64,000 nt of DNA from Chiloscyllium plagiosum. Lineage: Eukaryota. The DNA is taken from assembly GCF_004010195.1 (NCBI RefSeq), contig NC_057744.1, forward strand, positions 29,253,055 to 29,317,054, given 5' to 3'. The position numbers were made by a program, and so were the translations under genes. This document shows, one piece after another, positions 13,991 to 64,000 of the stretch. Below the pieces are notes generated by a model, which saw only the letters and a list, made by a program, of their open reading frames with translations, was not told the DNA's origin and made no database searches. Position 1 is the first letter of the stretch. Each line of letters begins with the position of its first letter.

Positions 13991-14524
13991 GCTGGCCCTG
14001 TCATAGACCCAGTGTCAAATGGGGAGGAACCCCCTGAAAATCCTAAGACAAAATAAAGAGGGAGAGATCTGATGCAATGGATCTCCACCTCCTTTTCCTT
14101 TTTTTCCATCTAGGGGCTGTAAAGGCATATAAAATACAAGCTTGATTCCCTTAAATCGTTAAGTTCAGCGGCTGTATAATTCTAATGTGGAGTAAATGTA
14201 ATTGCATGCATGTGACATTGTGATATTTTTCAAGATCTACTTTGCCCAGTTGTCATCTAATCCCTTCTGACAGGTCAAAGGCAAAGATTTCAGGCTGGTG
14301 GAAAGCAATCTAGAAATTATCATTCGGAGTACTCAGTTTTCTCATACTCAGGGTAATAGTCAAATGCCTTCGGCATGGGTTACTGCAGGACTGCTGGATT
14401 TTCTACCTGCTCAAAGTTGATAGCAATTATGAGGCTTGCTCATCACCAGCAGTTTAATACAGGTCTGGAGTGAGGGATTTTGGAAAAGGTGGGATCCTGT
14501 TAGAAAACAACTCACCCACCTTGG

Positions 14525-14593
14525 TTAGGGTTAGGGTTAGGATTAGGGTTAGGGTTAGGGTTAGGGTTAGGGTTAAGGTTAGGGTTAGGATTA
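14525..14593 (+). repeat. Interstitial telomeric repeat (TTAGGG)11
   Basis: 11 hexamers, 8 perfect plus TTAGGA x2 and TTAAGG x1. Confidence 0.97.
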
Positions 14594-15417
14594 CCACCCT
14601 GAGATGTGTAGTGGCTGGTCACTGTAAGCTGAAGCCCTTCCTCCTTGCAGACTCTCATTGTTTTCATTAGCAAATCCACCTCATGGCTTGGCTCTGGGTC
14701 ACATGTGTGGCCCAGAGGAAGTCCTTCAATTAGATGTGTAGGTGTTCTCAATCATGAAGGAGAACTGCTTGGACATCTGTCTTGCATATTGTATCTTGGG
14801 GAATGTATTGTGACAGAGCCTGGAAGCTGTGTGAGGCAGATGTGACTGGTCTTACCACATACGCAGTGCCACGCTGCAGTACAGACGGTCATTGTTCTGT
14901 GAGATGACCTACATGGGAGTTGACAGTGAACATCTGAGTGTTTGACTCCTCCACCAGGCAGACCAACTTCCACTGTCATGTAGGAGGAAATAGAATACTT
15001 CCAAATAGAAGCAACATCACATGAGAAGCAAAGCTGCTGACATTGTGATATCCTGCAACCTGTGACATACTGAGGAATGTCCTTCCTTCTTTCTGACTTG
15101 GACACAGTCAAATTCTATTCCACGTCAGCTGTCTCTACATAAAGCACACAAAAATGTCAATGTATACTTTTGAAATGTTTACTTACTAGTATTCATTTTC
15201 ATTGGTATTTATTTATTGCTATGGCACAGACAGAATTCCCTTCACTTCCTGTGAGCAGTATGTTGTCTAAGTAAGAGGAGCATTTATTATTACCCTCAGA
15301 GTATGGAATCAAATTAAGTAATTTCAGTGACCAGTTTAGTGAATTCAGAGCAAAGAAGGCTATTTAAAGTCAGCCCTGACTTTAAAGCATAGCATCTCAC
15401 ACACGTGCTCCCATATG

Positions 15418-15443
15418 TCACACACACACACACAAACACACAC
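15418..15443. repeat. (CA)n microsatellite
   Basis: Read directly. Confidence 0.9.
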
Positions 15444-15678
15444 GTTACATGTTACTGGTTTAGGGTAAATGGCAAGCTAGCTTTTTTGAATGAAGTTGAT
15501 GCTCTGAAATTGGAATGAGGGTCTTGCAGAGTGAAGGATTCTCTGCAGGTTTTGAAATCTCCTGCAGTCAAATTTCTAAGGTGAACTTTACTTGACTCAG
15601 GCTGAATGAGCCCTTTTCTCTGGAATCTCCTACATATAAGGTATTGCTATTAGAGACTTTGCTTGCCTGAATTATTTG

Positions 15679-15814
15679 CCTGAAGAAGGGCTTATGCCCG
15701 AAACGTCGATTCTCCTGTGATTCCTGAAGAAGGGCTTATGCCCGAAACGTCGATTCTCCTGTTCCCTGGATGCTGCCTGACCTGCTGCGCTTTTCCAGCA
15801 ACACATTTTCAGCT
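15679..15814 (+). mobile_element. 136-bp PLE-derived insertion carrying a tandem pair of minimal hammerhead motifs (family A)
   Basis: Identical 40-mers at 15679-15718 and 15723-15762, each CTGAAGA-A-GGGC-TTAT-GCCC-GAAACGTC; perfect 12-bp TSD CTGAATTATTTG at 15667-15678 and 15815-15826. Confidence 0.9.
15680..15756 (+). ncRNA. Predicted dimeric type I minimal hammerhead ribozyme
   Basis: Two intact cores; ACGU palindromes can form a shared stem III; GUC cleavage triplets end at 15707 and 15751. Confidence 0.7.
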
Positions 15815-15889
15815 CTGAATTATTTGGAGACAGTTTGATAGATTTGGCGGATCTTATGTTGATTTCTAAAGAAGCAGTCAGAAAACACA

Positions 15890-16196
15890 GGGTGGCACCT
15901 TGGCTCAGTGACTAGCACTGCTGCTTGGGTGACTGGGTGGAGGCTGTGCATTCTCTCTGTGTCTGTGTGGGTTTCCTCTGGGTGCTCCGGTTTCCTCCCA
16001 TAGGCTAGTAATATTCAGGTTGGGTGGATTGGCCATGCTAAATTGCCCATAGTGTCTCGGGATGTGCAGACTAGGTGGATTAGCCATGGGAAATGCAGGG
16101 TTACAGGGAGATAGCTCTGAATGCTGTTTGGAGGGTTTGATGTGGACTCATTGGGTTGAACAGCCTGTTTCCAATCTGTAGGGATTCTATGATTCT
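15890..16196 (+). mobile_element. HE1 SINE (internal deletion in tRNA head)
   Basis: TGGCTCAGTG A-box-like head, GTCTGTGTGGGTTTCCTC core, GGGATTCTATGATTCT tail. Confidence 0.9.
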
Positions 16197-16439
16197 TAGG
16201 GCAGCCTCATCATGTGACCTTCCAAAGTTCAAAGTCCTTCCCAAATAAAGGAGTGATATTCATATAGCTTCCTCCATCTGTGTTGCAGGTTAGTGTGCCT
16301 GTTTCAGAACGACCCTCTTACTATCATTTGTGATTAGTTTCAGGGAGGGGGCATTGAATCGTATCGGTTTAGAAAGTTATTTTGTATCGGTCCATCCTTC
16401 AACAAAGAACTTGCCTGGATGGCTCTGCATATCCACATT

Positions 16440-18092
16440 AGAACATACACCATAGAAAAGTACAGCACAGTATAGGCCCTTCAGCCCATGATGTTGTTCC
16501 GAGGATTAATCCTCATCTAAAATAAAATAACCTAACCTACGCTCCCCTCAATTTACTACTGTCCATCTGCATGTCCAGCAGTCACTTAAATGTCTTTAAT
16601 GACTCTGCTTCCACCACCACCGCTGGCAACGCATTCTATGTGCTCACAACTCGCTGCATAAAGAACCTACCTCTGACTTCTCCTCTACATCTGCCTCCTA
16701 ACACCTCAAAACTATGACCCCTCATCCCAGTCAATTCTGCCCTGGAGAAAAGTCTCTGGCTATCGACTCTATCCATGCCTCTCATTACCTTGTACACCTC
16801 GATCAGGTCACCTCTCTTCCTCCTTCTCTCCAGAGAGATAAGTCCCAGCTCAGTCAACCTCTCCTCGTAAGACAAGCCCTCCAGTCCATGCAGCATCCTG
16901 GTAAACCTCCTTTGCACCCCCTCCAAAGCCTCCACATCTTTCCTATAGTAGGGCAACCAGAGCTGGTTACAATATTCCAAGTGCGGTCTCACCTGGGTTT
17001 TGTAGAGCTGCAGCAAAATCTCACGGCTCTTAAACTTGATCCCCCTGTTAATGAAAACCAAAACACCATATGCTTTCTTAACAACCCTATCCACTTGGGT
17101 GGCAACTTTGAGGAATCTATGCACTTGAACACGAAGATCCTGCTGTACCTCCAGAATGCCAAGAATCCTGTCTTTAATCCTATATTCAGCCTTCAAGTTT
17201 GACCTTCCAAAATGCATCACTTCGCATTTATCCAGGTTGAATTCTATCTGCCATTTCTCAGCCTAGCTCTGCATCCTGTCAATGTTGCGCTACAGCCTGA
17301 AATAGCCCTCGATACTATCACAGCACCTCCAACCTTTGTGTCATCGGCAAACCCACCCCTCAACCTCCTCATCCAAGCCATTTATAAAAACTACAAAGAG
17401 CGGAGGCCCAAGAACACAGCCCTGTGGGATACCACTCACCACTGACCTCCAGGCAGAATACTTTCCACCTACAGCCACTCTTTGCTTTCTGTCAGCCAAC
17501 CAATTCTGAATCCAGACCGCCAAATCTCCCTGTATCCCAACCTCCTGACTTTATGAATGAGTCTACAGCTGAAGTCCATGTACACCACATCCTACAGCTC
17601 GACCTTCATCAACCTGACTCGTCACCTCCTCAAAGAACTCAGTAAGATTTGTGAGGCATGACCTGCACCTCACAAAGCCATGCTGACTGTCTTTAATCAT
17701 GCTATGCTTTTCTAAGTAGACATGAATCCTATTTCTCAGAATTTTTTCCAAAACCTTGCTGACCACAGATGTAAGGTCTGTAATTGCCAGGAATTTCCCT
17801 ATTCCCCTTCTTGAACATTCACCTCCCTCCAATCCTCCGGTACGACTTCTGTGGAGAATGAGGAAACAAAGATCTTCGCCAGCAGCTGAGCAACCTCCTT
17901 TCTCACTTCCCGGAACAACCTAGGTTAAATCTGATCTGGCCCTGGGGATTTATCAATCTTAGTATTTGCCAAACTTTCCTGCAAATCCATTTCCTCAATC
18001 TCGATCTGTTCAAGTCTGTTTCCCCACTCCCACTCCTCAAAGTTCTCATTCACAATAAAGTCCTTTTCTTTAGTGAAAACTGAAGCAAAATA
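16440..18092 (-). mobile_element. 5'-truncated CR1/HER1 LINE, RT pseudogene with frameshifts
   Basis: ORFs LTSVVSKVLEKIL..SQHGF..SCLTNLTEFFEEVT, WIQNWL..SGIPQGCVLGP, LYKTQVRPHLEYC..QRRFTRM; CCACATT TSD at 16433-16439 and 18093-18099. Confidence 0.95.
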
Positions 18093-21398: not shown

Positions 21399-21628
21399 AG
21401 TGACAAAAACCCGAACGAACTGCAGATGCTGTAAATCAGAAAGAAGAACAGAAGTTGCTGGAAAAGCTCAGTAGGTCTGGCAGCATCTGTGCAGAGAAAT
21501 CAAAGTCAACATTTTGAGTCCTGTGATCCTTCCCCAGTTCTAAGGAAGGGTTGCTAGTCCCAAAACGCTAACTTTGATTTCTCTTCAGAGATGCTACCTG
21601 CTGGGTTTTTCCAGCAATGTCTGTTTTT
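21399..21628. mobile_element. PLE fold-back insertion (family D) with two decayed hammerheads
   Basis: Inverted arms centred near 21538; 8-bp TSD ATCTCTTC at 21391-21398 and 21629-21636. Confidence 0.8.
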
Positions 21629-23465: not shown

Positions 23466-23655
23466 ACAAAAAAACTGCAGATGCTGGAATCCAAAGTAGA
23501 CAGGTGGGAGGCTGGAAGAACACAACAAGCCAGACAGCTTTAGAAGTCAATGTTTTGGGTGTAACCCTTCTTCAGACTGGGGGTGGATGTAGGGAAAGCT
23601 GCAGATAAAGGGGGAGGCAGGGTGGTGAAGTGGGGATTGGTGAAGATAGGCAGAG
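23466..23655 (-). mobile_element. PLE 3' terminus (family C) with decayed hammerhead
   Basis: Minus strand CTGAAGA(23575-23569) A GGGT TAC ACCC AAAAC ATT; C-rich 3' UTR. Confidence 0.8.
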
Positions 23656-23939: not shown

Positions 23940-24822
23940 ACGGATTTCAATGTCAGAAAATAGGTCGGATATCCTCTTACTGCTCTATTCCTCCCTGACT
24001 CCCTTCCTAGCTCCTCCCCCTCTCTGCCATTGCTCCCTTCTACCAACTGGTTCATTCCTCCCGGGTCATACCCTCTACCTGTCTTCACCCATCTCCACTT
24101 CACCACCCTGCCCCCACCACCCCCTTTATCTGCAGCTCCTCCCCACACCCTCCCCCAGTCCTGAAGAAGGGTCACACCCAAAATGTCGACTTCTCCACCT
24201 CCTGTTTCAGCTGCATTGAGAATACTGTGTACAGTTCTGGTCGCCGCATTACCAAAAGGATGTGGACGCTTTGGAGAGGGTGCAAAGAAGGTTTACGAGG
24301 ATGTTGCCTGGTATGGAAGGTGCTAGTTATGAAGAGAGGTTGAGTAGGTTAGGTTTATTTTCATTAGAATAAAGGAAATTGAGGGGGGACCTGATTGAGG
24401 TTTATAAACCCATGAAGGGTATAGGCAGGGTGGATAGAGACAAGCCATTTTCCCAGGGTGAAGGATTCAATAATGAGAAGTCACACATTCAAGATGAGAG
24501 GTGGAAAGTTTAAGGGGGATACATGCGGCAAGTACTTCACACAGTGGGTGGTGGGCGTTTGGAACACATTGCCAGCGGGGGTGATAAAGGCAGGTACGGT
24601 AGATTCATTTAAGATGCGTCTGGATAAATGCATGAGTAGGTGGGATGCAGAGGGATACAGATGCTTAGGAATTGACCAACAGGTTTAGGCAGTAGATTTG
24701 GATCGACTCAGGCTTGGAAGGCTGAAGGGCCTGTTCCTGGGCTGTAAATTTTCTTTGTTCTTTTCTTTTTACTTTGATGCCGCCTGGCTTGCTGTGTTCT
24801 TCCAGCCTCCTACCTGTCTACT
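23940..24822 (+). mobile_element. PLE 3' terminus (family C) interrupted by CR1
   Basis: C-rich UTR, CTGAAGA 24161-24167 AGGGTCACACCC AAAATGTCGAC; resumes ATGCCGCCTGGCTTGCTG at about 24777. Confidence 0.8.
24205..24775 (+). mobile_element. CR1/HER1 LINE 3' fragment
   Basis: [26 protein letters not shown] and KYFTQWVVGVWNTLP motifs; TTCTTTG tail. Confidence 0.93.
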
Positions 24823-25056: not shown

Positions 25057-25267
25057 CCAAGAGAGCAAAAATTGCTTGAGAAACTCAGCAGATCTGGCAG
25101 CATCTGTGGAGTAGAAACAGAGTTAACATTCTGAAGAAGGGTCATTGGACTCAAAACATTAGCTCTGTTTTTTTTTCTCTACAGTTGCTGCCAGGTCTGC
25201 TGAGTTTCTCCAGCAATTTCTGGTTCTGTTTGTTTCAGATCTCCAGCACCTAATATTCTTGTTGTAA
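25057..25267. mobile_element. PLE fold-back insertion (family D)
   Basis: Right arm starts at CTGAAGA 25131-25137; TCTTGTATTT duplicated at 25042-25051 and 25268-25277. Confidence 0.8.
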
Positions 25268-31912: not shown

Positions 31913-32230
31913 AGAATCACAAAATTATGGAATTATTACAGTGCTGAATGAGGCCATTAGGCCTCTCGTGCCTGCACCAGCTCACTGAAGATGTTACCTA
32001 CTATGGTGATGAAACGTCTAAAAATGAACCTTCCAGCTCAGTGAGCAAACCTACATCCTGAACCTCAACCTGAGCTACAAATCTTCTCAAAACTCTGCAC
32101 CAGCTCTGTTATCTAGAGCCAATCTCCTGCCATTTCCGGATATCCCTGCACAGCCTTATTATCTAAATAACCATCCGACGTCCTCTTGAATGCTTCAGTC
32201 CCTGCCTCCACCAGATTACCAGGCAAACGT
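31913..32230 (-). mobile_element. Old CR1 3' end hosting a PLE micro-insertion
   Basis: AGAATCACA..GAGGCCATT..CCTCTTGAATGC..CCAGGC. Confidence 0.7.
31984..32094 (+). mobile_element. 111-bp PLE-derived insertion (family E) starting at a hammerhead core
   Basis: CTGAAGA(31985-31991) T GTTACC TACTAT GGTGAT GAAACGTC(32011-32018); perfect 12-bp TSD CTGCACCAGCTC at 31972-31983 and 32095-32106. Confidence 0.88.
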
Positions 32231-34507: not shown

Positions 34508-34766
34508 TAAAAACAATGACTGCAGATGCTGGAAACCAGATTCTGGATTAGTGGTGCTGGAAGAGCACAGCAGTTCAGGCAGCATCCAAGGAGCAGTGAA
34601 ATCGACGTTTCGGGCAAAAGCCCTTCATCAGGAATAAAGGCAGTGAGCCTGAAGCGTGGAGAGATAAGCTAGAGGCGGGTGGGGGTTGGGAGAAAGTAGC
34701 ATAGATTACAATGGGTGAGTGGGGTAGGGGATGAAGGTGATAGGTCAGGGAGGAGAGGGTGGAGTG
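34508..34766 (-). mobile_element. PLE 3' terminus (family A variant) running into the gap
   Basis: AAAACAATGACTGCAGATGCTGG...; G-rich (+) UTR; intact hammerhead motif. Confidence 0.85.
34600..34635 (-). ncRNA. Intact minimal hammerhead motif
   Basis: Minus strand ATTC CTGATGA A GGGC TTTT GCCC GAAACGTC GATT. Confidence 0.7.
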
Positions 34767-35219
34767 NNNNNNNNNNNNNNNNNNNNNNNNNNNNNNNNNN
34801 NNNNNNNNNNNNNNNNNNNNNNNNNNNNNNNNNNNNNNNNNNNNNNNNNNNNNNNNNNNNNNNNNNNNNNNNNNNNNNNNNNNNNNNNNNNNNNNNNNNN
34901 NNNNNNNNNNNNNNNNNNNNNNNNNNNNNNNNNNNNNNNNNNNNNNNNNNNNNNNNNNNNNNNNNNNNNNNNNNNNNNNNNNNNNNNNNNNNNNNNNNNN
35001 NNNNNNNNNNNNNNNNNNNNNNNNNNNNNNNNNNNNNNNNNNNNNNNNNNNNNNNNNNNNNNNNNNNNNNNNNNNNNNNNNNNNNNNNNNNNNNNNNNNN
35101 NNNNNNNNNNNNNNNNNNNNNNNNNNNNNNNNNNNNNNNNNNNNNNNNNNNNNNNNNNNNNNNNNNNNNNNNNNNNNNNNNNNNNNNNNNNNNNNNNNNN
35201 NNNNNNNNNNNNNNNNNNN
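34767..35219. other. Assembly gap (453 N)
   Basis: Run of n. Confidence 1.
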
Positions 35220-35549
35220 TTACTGAAGTCCATATAGATCACATCTACTGCTCTACCTTCATCAATCCTCTTTGTTACTTCTTCAAAAAACTCAATCAAT
35301 TTTGTGTGACATGATTTTCCACGCACAAAGCCATGTTGACTATCCCTAATCAGTCCTTGCCTTTCCAAATACATGTACATCCTGTCCCTCAGGATTCCCT
35401 CCAACAACATTCGCACCACCGATGTCAGGCTCACTGGTCTATAGTTCCCCGGCTTGTCCTTACCACCTTTCTTAAACAGTAGCATCACATTAGCCAACCT
35501 TCAGTCTTCCAGCACCTCACCTGTGACTATCGATGATACAAATATCTCA
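35220..35549 (-). mobile_element. CR1/HER1 RT fragment running into the gap
   Basis: LFKKGGKDKPGNYRPVSLTSVV..SQHGFVRGKSC..FFEEVT..VDVIYMDFS. Confidence 0.95.
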
Positions 35550-43859: not shown

Positions 43860-44636
43860 GTATTGAATTTATTGTCATGTGCACCGAGGCACAGTAAAAT
43901 GCTTTGTCTTGCGAGCAATACAGGCAGATCACATAGTTAAGTAGCATAGATAGTAAATAATAGGTAAACAGTGGCAAAAACAAAAACACAGATACAGGTG
44001 AACTTTAAGAGTTTGTGAGTCCATTTAGTATTCTAACAACAGTAGGGTAGAAACTGTTTCGAAACTGCCTGGTGCTTGTGTCCAGGCTTCTGTACCTTCT
44101 CCCCGATGGTAGAGGTTGTAGAAAAACATTGCCAGGGTGGGATGGATCTTTGAGAATGCTTGCGGCCTTTCCTTGACAACGGGCCTGGTAGATGGATTCC
44201 ATAGATGGGAGGTTGGCCTTTGTGATTGTCGTTGAAAAGTCTGGTGCTGGAAAAGCACAGCAGGCCAGGCAGCATCCGAGGAGCAGGAGAATCGACGTTT
44301 CAGGCATAAGCCCTTCTCCTGAAGAAGGGCTTATGCCCAAAGCGTCGATTCTCCTGCTCCTCAGATGCTGCCTGGCCTGCTGCGCTTTTCCAGCACCACA
44401 CTTTTCAACTCTGGTCTCCAGCATCTGCAGTCCTCACTTTCTCCTTTGTGATTGTCCAGGCCGAGTTCACCACTCTCTGTGACTGTCTCCGATCTTAAAT
44501 GGTACAGCTGCCATACCAGACAGAATGCCCTCGATGGCGCACCTATAAAAATGGCAAGGGTATTTGCCGTCATGCCAAATTTCCTCAGCTGCCTAAGGAA
44601 GAAGAGACGTTGTTGGGCCTTTGTAACCAGTGCGTC
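43860..44636 (-). mobile_element. Rex1/Babar-type LINE 3' fragment
   Basis: KAQQRLFFLRQLRKFG and ILKDPSHPG..LPSGRRYRS..FRNSFYP..RILN motifs; CACATT TSD at 43854-43859 and 44637-44642. Confidence 0.88.
44231..44442. mobile_element. PLE fold-back insertion (family A) inside Rex1
   Basis: About 87-bp inverted arms meeting at CTGAAGA 44319-44325; perfect 14-bp TSD CCTTTGTGATTGTC at 44217-44230 and 44443-44456. Confidence 0.92.
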
Positions 44637-45334
44637 CACATTTCAAGGCAAGGCAGTTGGAGAACTCCAAGACGTTCTTTCAGAAGAGCTTACAACTAGA
44701 AATTGTTGATTTCTAACTGCCCTCAGGGGATAGATATCCACCACTTCTCAAGATATTGATTCTATAGAGTGCGTGAGAGATCCTGTCAAACCATCCCTAG
44801 CCTGTTCCCCCTACTTTCACCATCTCCAGCTTTTAGGAGTGATGTTCCAAACTTCAGTAAAGATGGGGAGTGTGTGATGATGACAGAGTGTGTGCAACAG
44901 TCGGTAAGGTAGTCGAGTCAGAAATTATACTGTACATAACAATGTAGGCAGTAGATATTATATGATAAATTTATGTAATTATATGCTTTGGGTACCTGCT
45001 ATACCATCAATCAATAAATATGTAATAATATGTTCAGTCCATATATTACACAGTGGCACAGGTGTTGAATATTATGTAATGCTATAGAATTATTGCTGAA
45101 AGAGAAGACACGCTATTAAAAATGTTCATCTGCACTCATCAGAGCAGATGCAAGCTTATTAAATTCAAAACAAGCAACAGTTTATGCTGCATGAGAAATG
45201 GGTACTGATTGTTTAGCTAACTATAAGTCCAAAATTTTTGAAAACATGTCTCTTCTTTAGCAATTCGCACATTCTGTAGCCCATGAGATGATTCTGCATT
45301 ATGTGGTAACACCAAATTGAAACTGATTGAAACT

Positions 45335-56552: not shown

Positions 56553-57240
56553 AACTTGCATTTATATAGCACCTTTAATAAAGTAGAATAGTCCAAAGTG
56601 TTCACAGGAACATTATCAGTCAAAATTAACGGCAAATCATATATGGAGACATGAACAGAAACTGCTGGAAAAGCTCAGCAGGTCTGGTAGCATCTGTGGA
56701 AAGAAATCCAAGTTAACGTTTTGGGTCAGGTGACCTTTCCTCAGAAAGGTGCTGAGGAAGGATCACTTGATCCAAAATGTTAACTCTGATTTCTCTCCAC
56801 AGATGCTGCCAGACCTGCTGAGCTTTTCCAGCACTTTCTGTTTTGTTTCTGATTTCCAGCATCCACAGTTCTTTCAGATTTTATTTACAGAGACTTTAAG
56901 ATTGGTGGCCAAAGAGGAAGGTTTAAACAGCATCCTAAAGTGGGAGATTGAGGTAGAGAGGCAGAGAGATTGAAGAAAAGAATTCCAGAGCTTATGGTCC
57001 ATGCAACTAAAGGTATGACTGCCAATGGGGAAGTGAACAAAGTTAGGGCTTTGGCAGAGACAGGAATTGTAGGAGATCGGAATGGATTGTGCTACTTAAT
57101 GAGGACACAGAGATGAGAGGCATAGAAGGATTTGAAAACAAAGATGGGAATTTTAAAATTGATCTGTTGCTGGATGCAAAGTGAATACAGACAAGCTATA
57201 CAGGAGTGGTGGGCAGATGTGACTTATTTGCAAGCACATA
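56553..57240 (-). mobile_element. L2-type LINE 3' fragment
   Basis: AACTTGCATTTATATAGCACCTTT tail shared with Deu-type SINEs; GAATTCCAGAGCTTA..GGATTTGAAAACAA body. Confidence 0.65.
56652..56885. mobile_element. PLE fold-back insertion (family D)
   Basis: About 90-bp inverted arms; divergent CTGAGGA boxes at 56744-56738 (-) and 56752-56758 (+). Confidence 0.88.
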
Positions 57241-57983: not shown

Positions 57984-58230
57984 TAAAAAGCCTAGCTTTT
58001 GAGTGCTGCTCCTTCACCAGGGACAGCACCTGATGAAGGAGCAGTGCTCTGAAAGCTAGTGCTTCCAAATAAACCTTGGATTATAACTGCTGTTGTGTGA
58101 TTTTTAACTTTGTCCGCCCAGGTCCAACACTGGCTCCTCCACTTCTTGAAGAAGGGTCACACCTGAAACGTTGACTTCTCCACCTCCTGATGCTGCCTGG
58201 CTTGCTGTGTTCTTCCAGCCTCCTGCTTGT
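57984..58230. mobile_element. Chimeric PLE insertion (family B inverted + family B + family C) with three hammerhead motifs
   Basis: TSD CCTTCTT at 57977-57983 and 58231-58237; motifs at 58020-57992 (-), 58030-58058 (+) and 58146-58172 (+). Confidence 0.8.
58025..58063 (+). ncRNA. Minimal hammerhead motif with complete stem I
   Basis: AGCAC CTGATGA A GGAGC AGT GCTCT GAAAGCTA GTGCT: 5-bp stem I, 5-bp stem II (G.U closing pair), AGCT palindrome, CUA triplet. Confidence 0.72.
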
Positions 58231-60349
58231 CCTTCTTGAATTGCTGCCGTCCTTGAGATCCACAACACCGTTAGGAAGGCAGTTCAAGAATTTTGATCCT
58301 ACAGCAGAGCAGGGACAGTGATATATTCCCATGTCAAGATAGCTCCGAGGGGAACATACAGGGTGAATCTGTTTCCCCTTTTCCTTCTTGGTGGTAGCTG
58401 TGAACCAGCAGACCCAAGCTAATCCACAGGTTCAAACTCACCAATGCAAGAGTGTGGTCTGGAAGATAATGTCAAGGGCAGTGCTCGAGAAGCAGTGGCT
58501 CCTTCAAAGCTTTTTTTTTGTGTCCATTTCGTTCCATCTTCCTCTGTGGCATTCACCTCATCATCACTCTCAAGGCAGGCTGCTGTCTGGCCTTTGGAGC
58601 ATATTTGTTGGTTCACCCTCCTGCCTCCTCAACCTGGAAGGTGATCCAAAAGGCAATTTCTTAATTGAACACTTTCCAGAAGGTCGGACCTGAGCAAAAA
58701 AAAGGGTGGGACAGTGGCAGTCATTATTGCAAAGGTGGACTGCTCCCAGTGACTGGAAAAAGACCATGGTGGAAAAGTCCAGCCCCAAAATATCTGTCTA
58801 ATCTACTCCAGCCCAGGATTTCACAATGACAGATGGCTTTGGCATTGTGTCCTCAGCATCAGAGGGGAGAAATCTGAATGAGCAGGATGAATATTAGGTT
58901 GGAAATGAGATTAAGGTTTATAGACCTCAGGATAAACATATTGTATGAAACATGCTGATCACTAAGCTGCTGGGACCGTTAATGTAGCAAAGATGAATCA
59001 TCCAGTATGGAAGATTAAATCAGTATGCTATTTGTTTTGTCTGATTTCCGCCTGGGATCACAAGGTATTTGTGCAGCAACTCCTCTCAGGCGATTGCGAG
59101 AGCTCTCTGCCAAATTTAGTCTATGGCCTGGATAGATTTAATGGGCCGATTGGTCTTTCCTCGTTTAGTTCTTTCCTGTTTTCTCGCTTACATTAAGGCA
59201 TAGTCAAATCTGCAGAGTAGGTCAAAGTGTTGAGTGTTCCTGACTGGAAACCCTTGCTTCCCAGGGAATGTAGCCTGACCACAAGAGGCTTCCATGGTTG
59301 GGTGTAACACAAAGGAACCTTCATGGATATGAAGATCCATTACCGAGAAATGATGCATTGAAGTAAATTGGCCAGAAGCAATGGAGGAGCTGATCAGAAA
59401 ACATTAGATGTCGGACAACCACATGCCAATTATGTGCACGCTGCAAAGCCCTTGTTGTTCCAATCCCCATCACTGACACTCCTCCAACGATGACAGCTGA
59501 TGGGATTAACTCTAAAGGTCATTTAGGAGTATAGTGAATGCAAATATATTCTCTGGTAGTTAGCCTTGCTCCTAAACATAAACAGCTGAACCTACAGCCA
59601 AATGACTGTGATGCAGACCCACAGGCTTAAGCATCTACATCTGGGATAACACATTATATTCCTACAAAGTAAATATAGGGAACGGGTTGCCTGTGTTTAC
59701 ATTCGGTTTTGCACAGCTAAATACAGCAAACAGACAAGTGATCATTGAAACTGTTCTTCCCAAGCCACCACCCAGTAAAGTAGGAAGGGCCCCAGAGCAA
59801 AGAACTCTGAGCATTTTGTTTATGGTGAGCTTCTCTAAGTCCCAAACAGAGTTTATGATCCCATTCGCATTTCCTTCGCGTTCAACTTAAGTTGCTACAA
59901 ACAGATTCGTTTTAAGATTTCTCCACCAACGTGGCAAAAGCCTTTCCAAACCTCCAGGTTGGTGAAATCCAGGCAGAATGAATAAGAATGATGACTATCT
60001 CTGGGATTAGTTTAACTCATCTGCAGAAGGAGAGCTTTCTTTCACCCATGCCTGCAGGCTCAGGGAGCAAATCCTGCTCCAGGTAACTCCAGTCAGCAGG
60101 GACTGGAGTTTTGGTTCTGGAATTGGGGTTCATCACAGGCGGGAGATACCTGTCTGCTGAGTGTGGGTAACCTTGTGTTCACTTAAAACCCAAAACAGAC
60201 CCGAAAGAAAGATTTTATGGCCAGACCCCTGGTCAGGTTCTTTATAACAATGGGATTGTTAATCTCTCAGGAATGAAATGGCTTCCATTCTTTAATCACA
60301 CCCCAACCCTCAGTTCGTCGCAACAATCATTAGTTTAGAAAGAATTCCT

Positions 60350-61922: not shown

Positions 61923-63714
61923 CTGAAAACAACATGTTCAGCTTCAGGGGCTGGACTGTACGTGCTTATGAACCAGATGTGGTTTCCAAGCTGCTGGTTA
62001 GCTCCCAGTGCGTTCAACTATCTTGTGGGCGCTCAGTTGGCTCCATTGTGACAGTGCCAAATGCTATTGATATCTCTGATGACTGCAAATCAGTGTGTAC
62101 AACACAAGAGTCGTTGCTGCCAACTGCCCAGCATTACTCCGCAGTGTTGGCAGACAATCCTTGTTCAGCAAGCAGCTCCTTTCATATGCAAATTAGCCTT
62201 CAGAGCCACACGTGGGATTTGATGTTAATAAGGACAAAAAAAATGCTGGAAATGCACCGCAAGTCAATCAGTGTCTGAAAGTAAAAGACAGGCTAACATT
62301 TTGGGTGAAGCCCTTTGGCAGGACTGGAGAATTCTGTTAAGGAGCCGCAGCTGCAGCATTAACCTCCATTCAACTGGTATTTTATTGCTGAGGGCTGCTC
62401 ACTTCCAACATGTGCAGTCAGCAGCCCTGCAGGACAAAGCTTACCCTATTCTGTCAGATTTCTTTGGCCAGACAAACAGTATAAACAATGTTCCTGTCTT
62501 ATTGGCATGAATGAATTTCCTGTTGTTACCCATATCATCAGCCCCAAAAACACGTGTGAGGGTCACATGCACCATTGAAACCATCTTTGTTCATTCCATC
62601 TCTCTGTCTCTCCCCTTGTCCACAAAGCTAAGCTTCCCCACCTCACCTCCCCCAGCAAGGTTTCTGTTGCTTCTGAGACAAAGCTACATCTTTCTCCAGT
62701 TTCTCTTGCCATGAGCCTCTATTGTCTCTTCAAGCTGATCTTGTTCATCAGACCCAACCCCTGTTCTCCCAATCCTATTTCTACTAACCTTCTGACTCCT
62801 CAAACTCCCTTCTTGGCTCCCATTGCTCAACTGATATTGTGATGCTGTGTATATTTCAGCGCTTCTTCTAATTTGCCATTACCACCCAACTCCTCAAAAG
62901 AGAGATGACTCTAGTGTTCAGTTTTTCTGAGTTCTGTTATGTGAGGATGTTTACCATTGATGCTTACTGTGCTCGGTTAGTTAAGCCTGGGTTTGGACAT
63001 GGAGGAAAGTGAACAAACTGTCAAAGACACTGGGAGCAAAGAGCCGTGAGCATGGAGCAGACATTTTAAAGCACTGTGAATAATCTTTATATATGCATGT
63101 GGATCAGTACAATCAATGGGTGCCACAGAAGTTGGAGTACCTTATGAGCCCCAGAATCAATATTTTAGTTCAATTTGATAAGCTGGCTTTAAAATTTTGA
63201 TTTTTATTCGTGTTACTTTAAGAGCTCGTTCTTTAGACAACTAATTGATTCGATTTACTCAAAACAGTATAAACTAGCGTGTTATCTCTATGCAGTCCAC
63301 AGTACGCAAGGTCAGTCTCCTCTCTGACCTTGTAAATATAACCTGACCACTTGACTTTTTATTCCAAAGTCCTCGAATGTGTTGTTTCCTTCCAAATTCC
63401 TGTCCATTCTTAGGTCTTTTTCCGGCAACTTCTGTTTCCATTTCAGCATGTAAATGAGTGAATGAATGATTTTTATTGTCATGTGTATTTTACAGTGAAA
63501 TACAAGAAGCTTTGTTCCCATAATCCGGTGTCATTTTGATAATTTTACTATAAGAGGAAATGAAAATGTACAGCTTAAAGAGAAGGCCATTACATTTGAA
63601 TTCTGAGCTGGCACATCAGATAAAACTAACAGTGAAGTCGTCGATCCTCAGACTCCATCTTTCACTGCTGGGCCTACCTCACTGACATCACCTCAGATTT
63701 GCTCTCCTCCCCCA

Positions 63715-64000
63715 CACTGGGCTCACCCTCCCCTCGCACTGGGCTCACTCTCCCCCCGCACTGGACTCACTTTTCCCCTCGCACTGGGCTCACTCTCCCC
63801 TAGCACTGGGATCACTCTCCCCTCGCACCGGGCTCACTCTCCCCCTCACACTGGACTCACTTTCCCCTCACACTGGGCTCACTCTCCCCTAGCACTGGAC
63901 TCACTTTGCCCCCACACTGGGCTCACTCTCCCCCCACACTGGGCTCACTCTCTCCTCGCACTGGACTCGCTCTCCCCTCGCACTGGGCTCACTCTCCCCT
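63715..64000. repeat. 22-bp minisatellite, about 13 units, continuing past the window end
   Basis: Unit CACTGGGCTCACTCTCCCCTCG with 22/23-bp variants. Confidence 0.95.

What the first reader, a model, noticed from the sequence alone, without database searches (positions are those of the whole stretch)
15667..15826. Young 136-bp TSD-flanked element made of a perfect tandem hammerhead dimer
Seen: two identical 40-mers at 44-nt period with all CpGs intact and a perfect 12-bp TSD. Inference: the two ACGU palindromes pair into the 4-bp helix III that a monomer cannot form. The spacer folds into stem I for core 2 (G15708-C15723, A-U, U.U, U-A, C15712-G15719, 6-nt loop), predicting cleavage after C15707; cleavage at both sites would release a 44-nt RNA. 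Established: tandem dimeric hammerheads are the active form in newt satellite 2 and non-LTR retrozymes. This looks like a minimal retrozyme-like unit born from a PLE end, and could cut any + strand transcript crossing it.
Basis: partly seen in the sequence, partly recalled or inferred. Interest (0 to 1): 0.85.

Follow-up and report, generated by a model that had tools for sequence, protein, structure and literature searches.

The report
Shark Penelope end with doubled hammerhead
This is a recently inserted scrap of a common shark jumping gene whose small self-cutting RNA motif was copied twice in a row, giving at most one weak cutting site rather than a new self-spreading element.

Summary
The insert is the 5'-truncated 3' end of a Penelope-like element (PLE) carrying a standard minimal hammerhead. 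The window holds 24 related arms at 18 loci. Five other loci have two adjacent arms head-to-head; only this one is a direct tandem. Family 3' ends fall at +91/92 or +124-127, the PLE 'tail'. Three of the four spacer bases match the pLTR just upstream of the ribozyme, so the doubling is best read as a junction accident (re-priming or template jump). The core cutting after 15707 is well formed, but its predicted occupancy is 0.4% in the element and 20-28% in isolation. The second core has a one-pair helix I (at most 3e-6), so no 44-nt RNA should be released. No host exon was recognised. Published minimal-hammerhead dimers cleave weakly, and 1 of 9 tested Xenopus dimers cleaved. Recurrence in the genome and PLE ORF linkage could not be tested. 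Verdict: a real, young, ordinary PLE insertion with an unusually short tandem; not shown to be a retrozyme.

The parts
15667..15678 (+). Left copy of the 12-bp target-site duplication (AT-rich, contains ATT)
15679..15718 (+). Upstream arm: 40-nt copy of the PLE end from ribozyme position 2.1 to +39; minimal hammerhead with CUGANGA 15680-15686, bulged A15687, helix II 15688-15699, GAAA 15700-15703, palindrome 15703-15706, C17 = 15707. It lacks its own helix I 5' strand (host DNA lies upstream).
   Evidence: consensus in PMC4209133 Fig. S3
15719..15722 (+). 4-nt junction spacer. Its last three bases match the pLTR bases just upstream of the ribozyme in two relatives (34631-, 38549+); the first base is unexplained (non-templated, or subfamily-specific pLTR). 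It forms the 3' strand of the hairpin helix I of the hybrid core.
15723..15762 (+). Downstream arm, first 40 nt: second identical minimal hammerhead (core 15724-15730, helix II 15732-15743, palindrome 15747-15750, C17 = 15751)
15763..15814 (+). Rest of the PLE 3' end, stopping at the tail-less end position (+91/92 from C3) used by three other arms in the window
15815..15826 (+). Right copy of the TSD; its first 4 nt also fit the element's continuation (3' microhomology)
15703..15750 (+). Predicted hybrid hammerhead (core B): helix III 15703-06/15747-50, hairpin helix I 15708-12/15719-23 with one U.U, helix II of copy 2; would cut after 15707. Prediction only.

Best explanation
A single recent insertion of the 3' end of a shark Penelope-like retrotransposon, made by the autonomous element's RT/GIY-YIG protein, in which the ribozyme segment was copied twice during formation of the 5' junction. 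Steps: (1) the endonuclease makes a staggered cut at an AT-rich, ATT-containing site, giving the 12-bp TSD [TSD shown; enzyme inferred]; (2) reverse transcription starts at the first of the family's two internal start sites (+91/92) on uncleaved RNA and stops just 5' of the ribozyme, where most short copies stop [end positions shown; mechanism inferred from PAc]; (3) the junction is made in two tries, either by second-strand synthesis that primes at the cDNA end, aborts after 40 nt and re-primes at the same end, or by an RT template jump, leaving 40 nt + 4 nt + the full 92-nt arm [inferred; the two routes cannot be told apart here]. As RNA, the accident puts two minimal hammerheads side by side and completes one hybrid core that could cut after 15707 slowly and incompletely; the second site should not cut, so no 44-nt unit is released and the locus is a dead-end passenger [folding predicted; activity untested].
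For: 24 arms at 18 loci in the window, 0 hits in the reversed-window control; nearest relatives 82-90% identical. Five other loci have two adjacent arms head-to-head, three of them with 10-14-bp TSD-like repeats, so compound junctions are routine for this family. 3' ends fall in two classes 33-35 nt apart, 4 arms at +91/92 and 3 at +124-127 among the 7 arms measured, matching the 30-40-bp PLE tail and the two RT start sites of PAc. 4 of 6 candidate TSDs contain ATT, the PAc preferred cut motif. The motif fits the published min-HHR consensus at every position and helix II covaries across 17 arms (92.9% of cells paired, 6 compensatory cells, 2 of 500 shuffles). 16 of 24 arms begin within about -3..+8 of C3 and 0 of 24 at the cleavage site. 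Two Chiloscyllium plagiosum FUBP3-like isoforms end in an exonised single copy of the same subfamily with the same two ends, flanked by a repeated 5-residue word: the monomer is a recurrent unit. Core occupancies.
Against: No PLE RT or GIY-YIG coding sequence was found in the window (300 of 394 ORFs of 55 aa or more scanned; motif scan), so the link to an autonomous PLE rests on the ribozyme, tail and junction anatomy. The genome could not be searched, so 'one-off' is shown only for 64 kb. The spacer ranks 3 of 256 for the active fold and its unexplained first base is the best of 4, which could reflect selection or a natural 5-position helix I rather than luck. In published partial tandems the upstream copy runs to the element's end; here it stops at +39. 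Nearest-neighbour energies ignore tertiary contacts, Mg2+ and proteins, and PAc's ribozyme does cleave with its protein.
Confidence: 0.72

Rival explanations
1. The dimer is itself the mobile unit: a master locus with this junction is transcribed and mobilised in trans by the PLE protein as a minimal retrozyme-like element.
For: Perfect copies and TSD. The spacer is near-optimal for the hybrid core (3 of 256). A 2026 preprint derives non-LTR retrozymes from PLE pLTRs and would count two consecutive complete motifs as a candidate.
Against: The junction 16-mer occurs once in the window even at 3 mismatches. Only one core is complete, so no unit-length RNA can be excised. Period 44 nt lies below reported units (51-972 bp; 150-450 bp). 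The only outside relative found is a monomer. No family arm starts at the cleavage site.
Confidence: 0.11
2. An ordinary monomer inserted first, and a later DNA-level event (slippage or templated repair) duplicated the ribozyme segment.
For: The two copies are identical while the locus has no other age marker; short microhomologies exist around both junction ends (sequence).
Against: A simple tandem duplication would put the spacer before both copies or neither; it precedes only copy 2, and 3 of its 4 bases match pLTR sequence that a monomer starting at 15679 would not contain. The TSD is as perfect as the duplication.
Confidence: 0.1
3. The tandem is an assembly artefact in a high-copy repeat; the true allele has one 40-mer.
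For: The window is a gapped scaffold (453 N at 34767-35219) and the copies are 100% identical.
Against: The junction carries 4 extra bases that make biological sense, the whole insert is shorter than one short read, and it sits inside an exact TSD.
Confidence: 0.05

Closest known systems
[quoted passage not shown]
   Same: CUGANGA core, unpaired base before helix II, G10.1-C11.1, no loop III, palindromic 15.2/16.2, short helix I; thousands of solo copies from truncated PLEs; opposite-strand pairs; designed to act as dimers, with low activity in artificial dimers and trimers.
   Different: Natural same-strand pairs there lie about 3 kb apart (two pLTRs); here they are 44 nt apart. No shark was listed in Table S1 or Fig. 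S3 as read.
EN+ PLE insertion anatomy: 5' truncation, partial tandems, inverted truncated copy, 30-40-bp tail (PMC8557442, PMC3846280, PMC8969392); PAc/Poseidon mechanism (PMC11167929)
   Same: 5'-truncated end, 9-14-bp TSDs, two 3' end positions a tail apart, head-to-head arms, ATT-containing targets, uncleaved RNA as template.
   Different: The upstream arm here is direct, only 40 nt, and truncated at both ends. No ORF is attached, so the clade (Poseidon or Neptune) is not determined.
Non-LTR retrozymes and newt satellite 2 (PMC7229834; bioRxiv 10.64898/2026.07.22.740005)
   Same: Head-to-tail type I hammerheads whose weak helix III is rescued by dimer pairing; proposed origin from PLE pLTRs.
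   Different: Those have 150-450-bp units (51-972 bp in the preprint), usually canonical HHRs with loop-loop contacts, every unit with a complete helix I, multi-copy families and circular RNAs. Here: 1.9 units of 44 nt, one complete core, one locus, no RNA evidence.

Membership tests
PLE minimal hammerhead (min-HHR) | Core CUGANGA-H ... GAAA-N/palindrome-NUH with G10.1-C11.1 and an extra base before helix II | tested here: met
   against the consensus; position 7 is the varying core base among relatives
PLE minimal hammerhead (min-HHR) | Helix II supported by covariation | tested here: met
   92.9% paired, 6 compensatory cells, 2 of 500 shuffles, slid controls 60% or less; 17 of the 24 arms, related sequences, so not a true probability
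PLE minimal hammerhead (min-HHR) | Helix I of at least 2 bp | tested here: inconclusive
   Met for the hybrid core (4 pairs plus U.U), not met for the other core (1 pair); family-wide 76.3% paired, 31 of 500 shuffles
PLE minimal hammerhead (min-HHR) | Self-cleavage | not testable with these tools
   only folding predictions
Rfam hammerhead families | Match to a covariance model | tested here: not met
   0 hits at gathering score in the window; no hammerhead among 4 weak hits at E up to 10 in 15400-16400. Expected for a motif without helix III (inference).
EN+ Penelope-like element (truncated insertion) | Optional 30-40-bp tail, i.e. two 3' end positions | tested here: met
   +91/92 (4 arms) and +124-127 (3 arms) of 7 arms measured; ends of the 34k and 38k arms were set by eye without a TSD
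EN+ Penelope-like element (truncated insertion) | 5' truncation with tandem or inverted arms and a TSD | tested here: met
EN+ Penelope-like element (truncated insertion) | Linked telomerase-like RT plus GIY-YIG ORF in full-length relatives | tested here: inconclusive
   No such ORF in the window; the longest pLTR copy runs into an N gap; no eukaryotic genome collection was available
Non-LTR retrozyme | At least two consecutive units each with a complete hammerhead | tested here: not met
   1.9 units; upstream core has a 1-bp helix I. A descriptor that ignores helix I closure might still count it.
Non-LTR retrozyme | Unit length in the reported range (150-450 bp; 51-972 bp) | tested here: not met
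   44 nt
Non-LTR retrozyme | Multi-copy family with the same unit | tested here: inconclusive
   One junction in 64 kb; protein searches found only a monomer; genome not searchable
Non-LTR retrozyme | Unit-length linear and circular RNAs | not testable with these tools
   no RNA data; folding argues against double cleavage

The most novel reading that the evidence does not exclude
Retrotransposition itself has assembled, in one step, a cis-active hammerhead out of two individually inactive PLE half-ribozymes, and the junction has been or is being re-mobilised as the seed of a 44-nt retrozyme, shorter than any unit in the papers read. A third copy of the unit would give every internal core a full helix I, so this locus would be the caught-in-the-act birth step from PLE end to retrozyme.
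Probability: 0.1. Interest if true: 0.6.

Novelty: new member of a known kind. Interest (0 to 1): 0.25.

Why it matters
As it stands it matters little: truncated PLE ends with minimal hammerheads are counted in thousands per vertebrate genome, and compound junctions are a known PLE trait. Its value is as a ready-made test piece. It is a natural, unmutated, 44-nt-period dimer of a ribozyme class whose activity and role remain unclear, and it shows one concrete way a PLE end can become a tandem, the step that the retrozyme-from-PLE model needs. If it cleaved well, or recurred with its own TSDs, it would be the shortest retrozyme-like unit among those in the papers read. A side result may be worth more: most short arms in this window start at the 5' edge of the ribozyme and none at its cleavage site, which fits copying of uncleaved RNA and points to the ribozyme fold as a boundary for integration.

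Tried and rejected
Rfam: no hammerhead hit. Bacterial and archaeal genome scans for stray copies: 0 and 0. Protein searches with the junction-spanning reading frames: minus frame, near lengths, no candidate; minus frame, longer, 10 candidates, none significant; plus frame against cluster representatives, 1 weak hit that is an unrelated repeat protein, rejected; plus frame, longer, 2 of 3 candidates, both monomer-bearing. None shows a second dimer, but these searches see only annotated or predicted ORFs and are weak evidence. Whole-element folding is no more stable than shuffles (z -0.63, 59 of 200 as good), and the MFE pairs the two copies in an inactive register. A host gene was sought: 300 ORFs gave only LINE RT pieces, a TE-associated ALKBH8_N match and three weak hits below cut-off; two of these were followed up and had no match among solved structures. 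Release of a 44-nt RNA was rejected. Supplement searches for a shark PLE or this motif found none; one file of PMC4209133 and the GenBank file of PMC11167929 could not be read, and the preprint's tables of retrozyme families (which include one chondrichthyan) were not seen and may already list short shark units. Metagenome and viral collections stayed unchecked. Literature searches listed no paper on shark PLE hammerheads, on a 44-nt tandem or on 5' ends clustering at the ribozyme; the library lacks most subscription papers and Repbase.

Full report
Observation. The 12-mer at 15667-15678 recurs at 15815-15826 and nowhere else in the window; the 40-mers at 15679 and 15723 are identical and separated by four bases; a 52-nt tail follows. 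TRF reports 1.9 copies of a 44-nt unit. A repeat of 12 bp or more at this spacing turned up at 52 of 200,000 random positions, and the hammerhead pattern matched 4 times in the window against 0 in each of 100 shuffles. The insert is younger than its neighbours: no mismatch in 52 duplicated sites (upper bound 5.6%) and 7 CpG in a window with o/e 0.22, whereas paired arms at five other loci differ by 7-23%. The absolute age is unknown.

What the insert belongs to. A profile built from ten window copies found 24 arms at 18 loci and nothing in the reversed window; the nearest five are 82-90% identical to the downstream arm. Two Chiloscyllium plagiosum FUBP3-like isoforms end in a read-through of the same subfamily, 28 of 33 residues identical. 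That copy is single, starts and ends where our downstream arm does, and is flanked by a repeated five-residue word, which looks like its own TSD. The window is therefore probably from a bamboo shark or close relative (inference), and the 92-bp monomer is a recurrent insertion unit. No host exon was recognised among the 300 longest of 394 ORFs, so no transcript crossing the site is known.

It is a Penelope-like end. The motif matches the published minimal-hammerhead consensus of metazoan PLEs at every position (PMC4209133, Fig. S3). Across 17 arms the core varies mainly at position 7 and helix II covaries (92.9% of cells paired, 6 compensatory cells, 2 of 500 shuffles); helix I is weaker (76.3%, 31 of 500). 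Rfam has no match, as expected for a motif without helix III. Of 7 arms measured, 4 end at +91/92 from C3 and 3 at +124-127 (two ends were set by eye). This is the optional 30-40-bp tail of PLEs (PMC8557442, PMC3846280), which in the Anolis element PAc comes from two internal RT start sites (PMC11167929). Four of six candidate TSDs contain ATT (the two shortest may be chance), the motif that PAc prefers to cut. Five loci have two adjacent arms head-to-head, another described PLE trait. The defining RT and GIY-YIG ORF was not found in the window, so membership rests on anatomy and the clade is open.

How the tandem arose. Short arms begin at the 5' edge of the ribozyme. Fourteen arms start at profile positions 2-4 and show no similarity to upstream pLTR (scores 24 or less, random 95th percentile 31), two more start at +5 and +8, five run on into pyrimidine-rich pLTR, three start further downstream, and none starts at the cleavage site (+29). 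Caveats: the profile begins at this edge, some pLTR-bearing arms score no better against each other than random, and one arm is weak (E 0.046). The last three spacer bases are the bases that precede the ribozyme in two relatives that retain pLTR. So both arms start within four bases of the same point, and the upstream arm stops at +39, which is not a family end. The simplest reading is one cDNA whose end was used twice, by abortive then successful second-strand priming, or an RT template jump; non-templated bases and microhomologies at 5' junctions are documented for R1 and R2 (PMC2718515), not for this family. A plain later duplication fits less well, because the spacer precedes only one copy. 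The junction occurs once in the window.

Would it cut? The hybrid core (helix III from the two palindromes, hairpin helix I from the spacer, helix II and catalytic bases of copy 2) is nested and correctly paired. Its predicted share of the ensemble is 0.4% in the element, 1-2% in nascent prefixes, 20-28% in 48-52-nt fragments and about 1e-5 in 301 nt of context; it lies 2.4 kcal/mol above a fold that pairs the copies in a shifted, inactive register. The reciprocal core has one helix I pair, because host DNA replaces its 5' strand, and an occupancy of 3e-6 or less. One cut is possible; a 44-nt product is not expected. Published activity is low: artificial min-HHR dimers and trimers cleaved weakly, PAc's ribozyme cleaved only with its protein and was dispensable for insertion, and 1 of 9 predicted Xenopus dimers cleaved. 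I put detectable single-site cleavage in vitro at about even odds and meaningful cleavage in vivo well below that (judgement).

Comparison and novelty. It works like a dimer-dependent type I hammerhead, as in newt satellite 2 and axolotl retrozymes, but fails two retrozyme tests: two complete units, and unit length (44 nt against 150-450 bp, or 51-972 bp). Multi-copy status and circular RNA are untested. The preprint 10.64898/2026.07.22.740005 already proposes that retrozymes arise from PLE ends and reports them in one chondrichthyan. The concept is thus in print; this locus is a compact possible illustration. Eight searches listed no paper on this shark family or on so short a tandem, within a library that lacks most subscription papers.

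What was read. PMC4209133: parts 1-2 of 4 of the text, supplement file 2 parts 1-2 of 3, file 1 unreadable. Preprint 2026.07.22.740005: parts 1-3 of 5, supplements not seen. PMC11167929: parts 1-2 of 4, three supplements searched, GenBank file unreadable. PMC7229834: parts 2-3 of 6. PMC8557442: passages and one supplement search. PMC3846280, PMC8969392, PMC6155905, PMC2718515: passages. Other papers: search listings only. Hammerhead numbering, the remark that ALKBH8_N often marks TE remnants, and the labels LINE and SINE for neighbouring repeats are recalled, not from a call.

Verdict. Real and young; a truncated PLE end with a junction duplication (confidence 0.72); at most one weak cleavage site; not shown to be a retrozyme. 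New member of a known kind, interest 0.25. The bolder reading, a cis-active ribozyme assembled by retrotransposition and seeding a 44-nt retrozyme, has probability about 0.1 and would merit 0.6.

Noticed in passing
window, 24 arms at 18 loci: 16 of 24 arms of this repeat begin within about -3..+8 of the ribozyme's first core base and none at its cleavage site. This suggests a 5' boundary set by the ribozyme fold or the ATT just upstream; the profile also starts there, so it needs a genome-wide check.
   Followed up: partly
958-1098, 21425-21627, 25068-25250, 44231-44424, 56654-56863: Five head-to-head two-arm insertions. At 44k and 1k one arm ends at the tail-less site and the other at the tailed site, inside 14- and 11-bp TSDs, as if both target strands primed reverse transcription.
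   Followed up: partly
23480-23575(-) and 24159-24204(+): A longer inverted pair of pLTR-bearing arms about 580 bp apart, 83% identical over 123 nt.
   Followed up: partly
58030-58242 (+): A different minimal-hammerhead repeat (palindrome AGCU) lies directly upstream of an arm of the present family.
   Followed up: no
31985-32018 (+): A further intact hammerhead-like core with a longer helix II region, not part of the profile's family.
   Followed up: no
34604-34631 (-): An intact monomeric minimal hammerhead with pLTR upstream; the copy runs into the N gap 34767-35219, beyond which LINE RT sequence follows.
   Followed up: partly
14523-14593: Interstitial telomere-type repeat, 11.8 copies of a 6-mer, 1.1 kb upstream of the finding.
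   Followed up: no
63707-64000: 22/67-bp minisatellite running off the window end.
   Followed up: no
P0002, P0003 (C. plagiosum FUBP3-like), residues about 530-572 of P0002: The predicted C-terminus is an exonised copy of this repeat with its TSD, probably a gene-model artefact or alternative last exon.
   Followed up: partly
16639-17919 (-), 35222-35500 (-), 44364-44642 (-): Decayed LINE-type RT fragments (RVT_1 below cut-off) and an ALKBH8_N match; the 44k two-arm insertion sits inside such a remnant.
   Followed up: no
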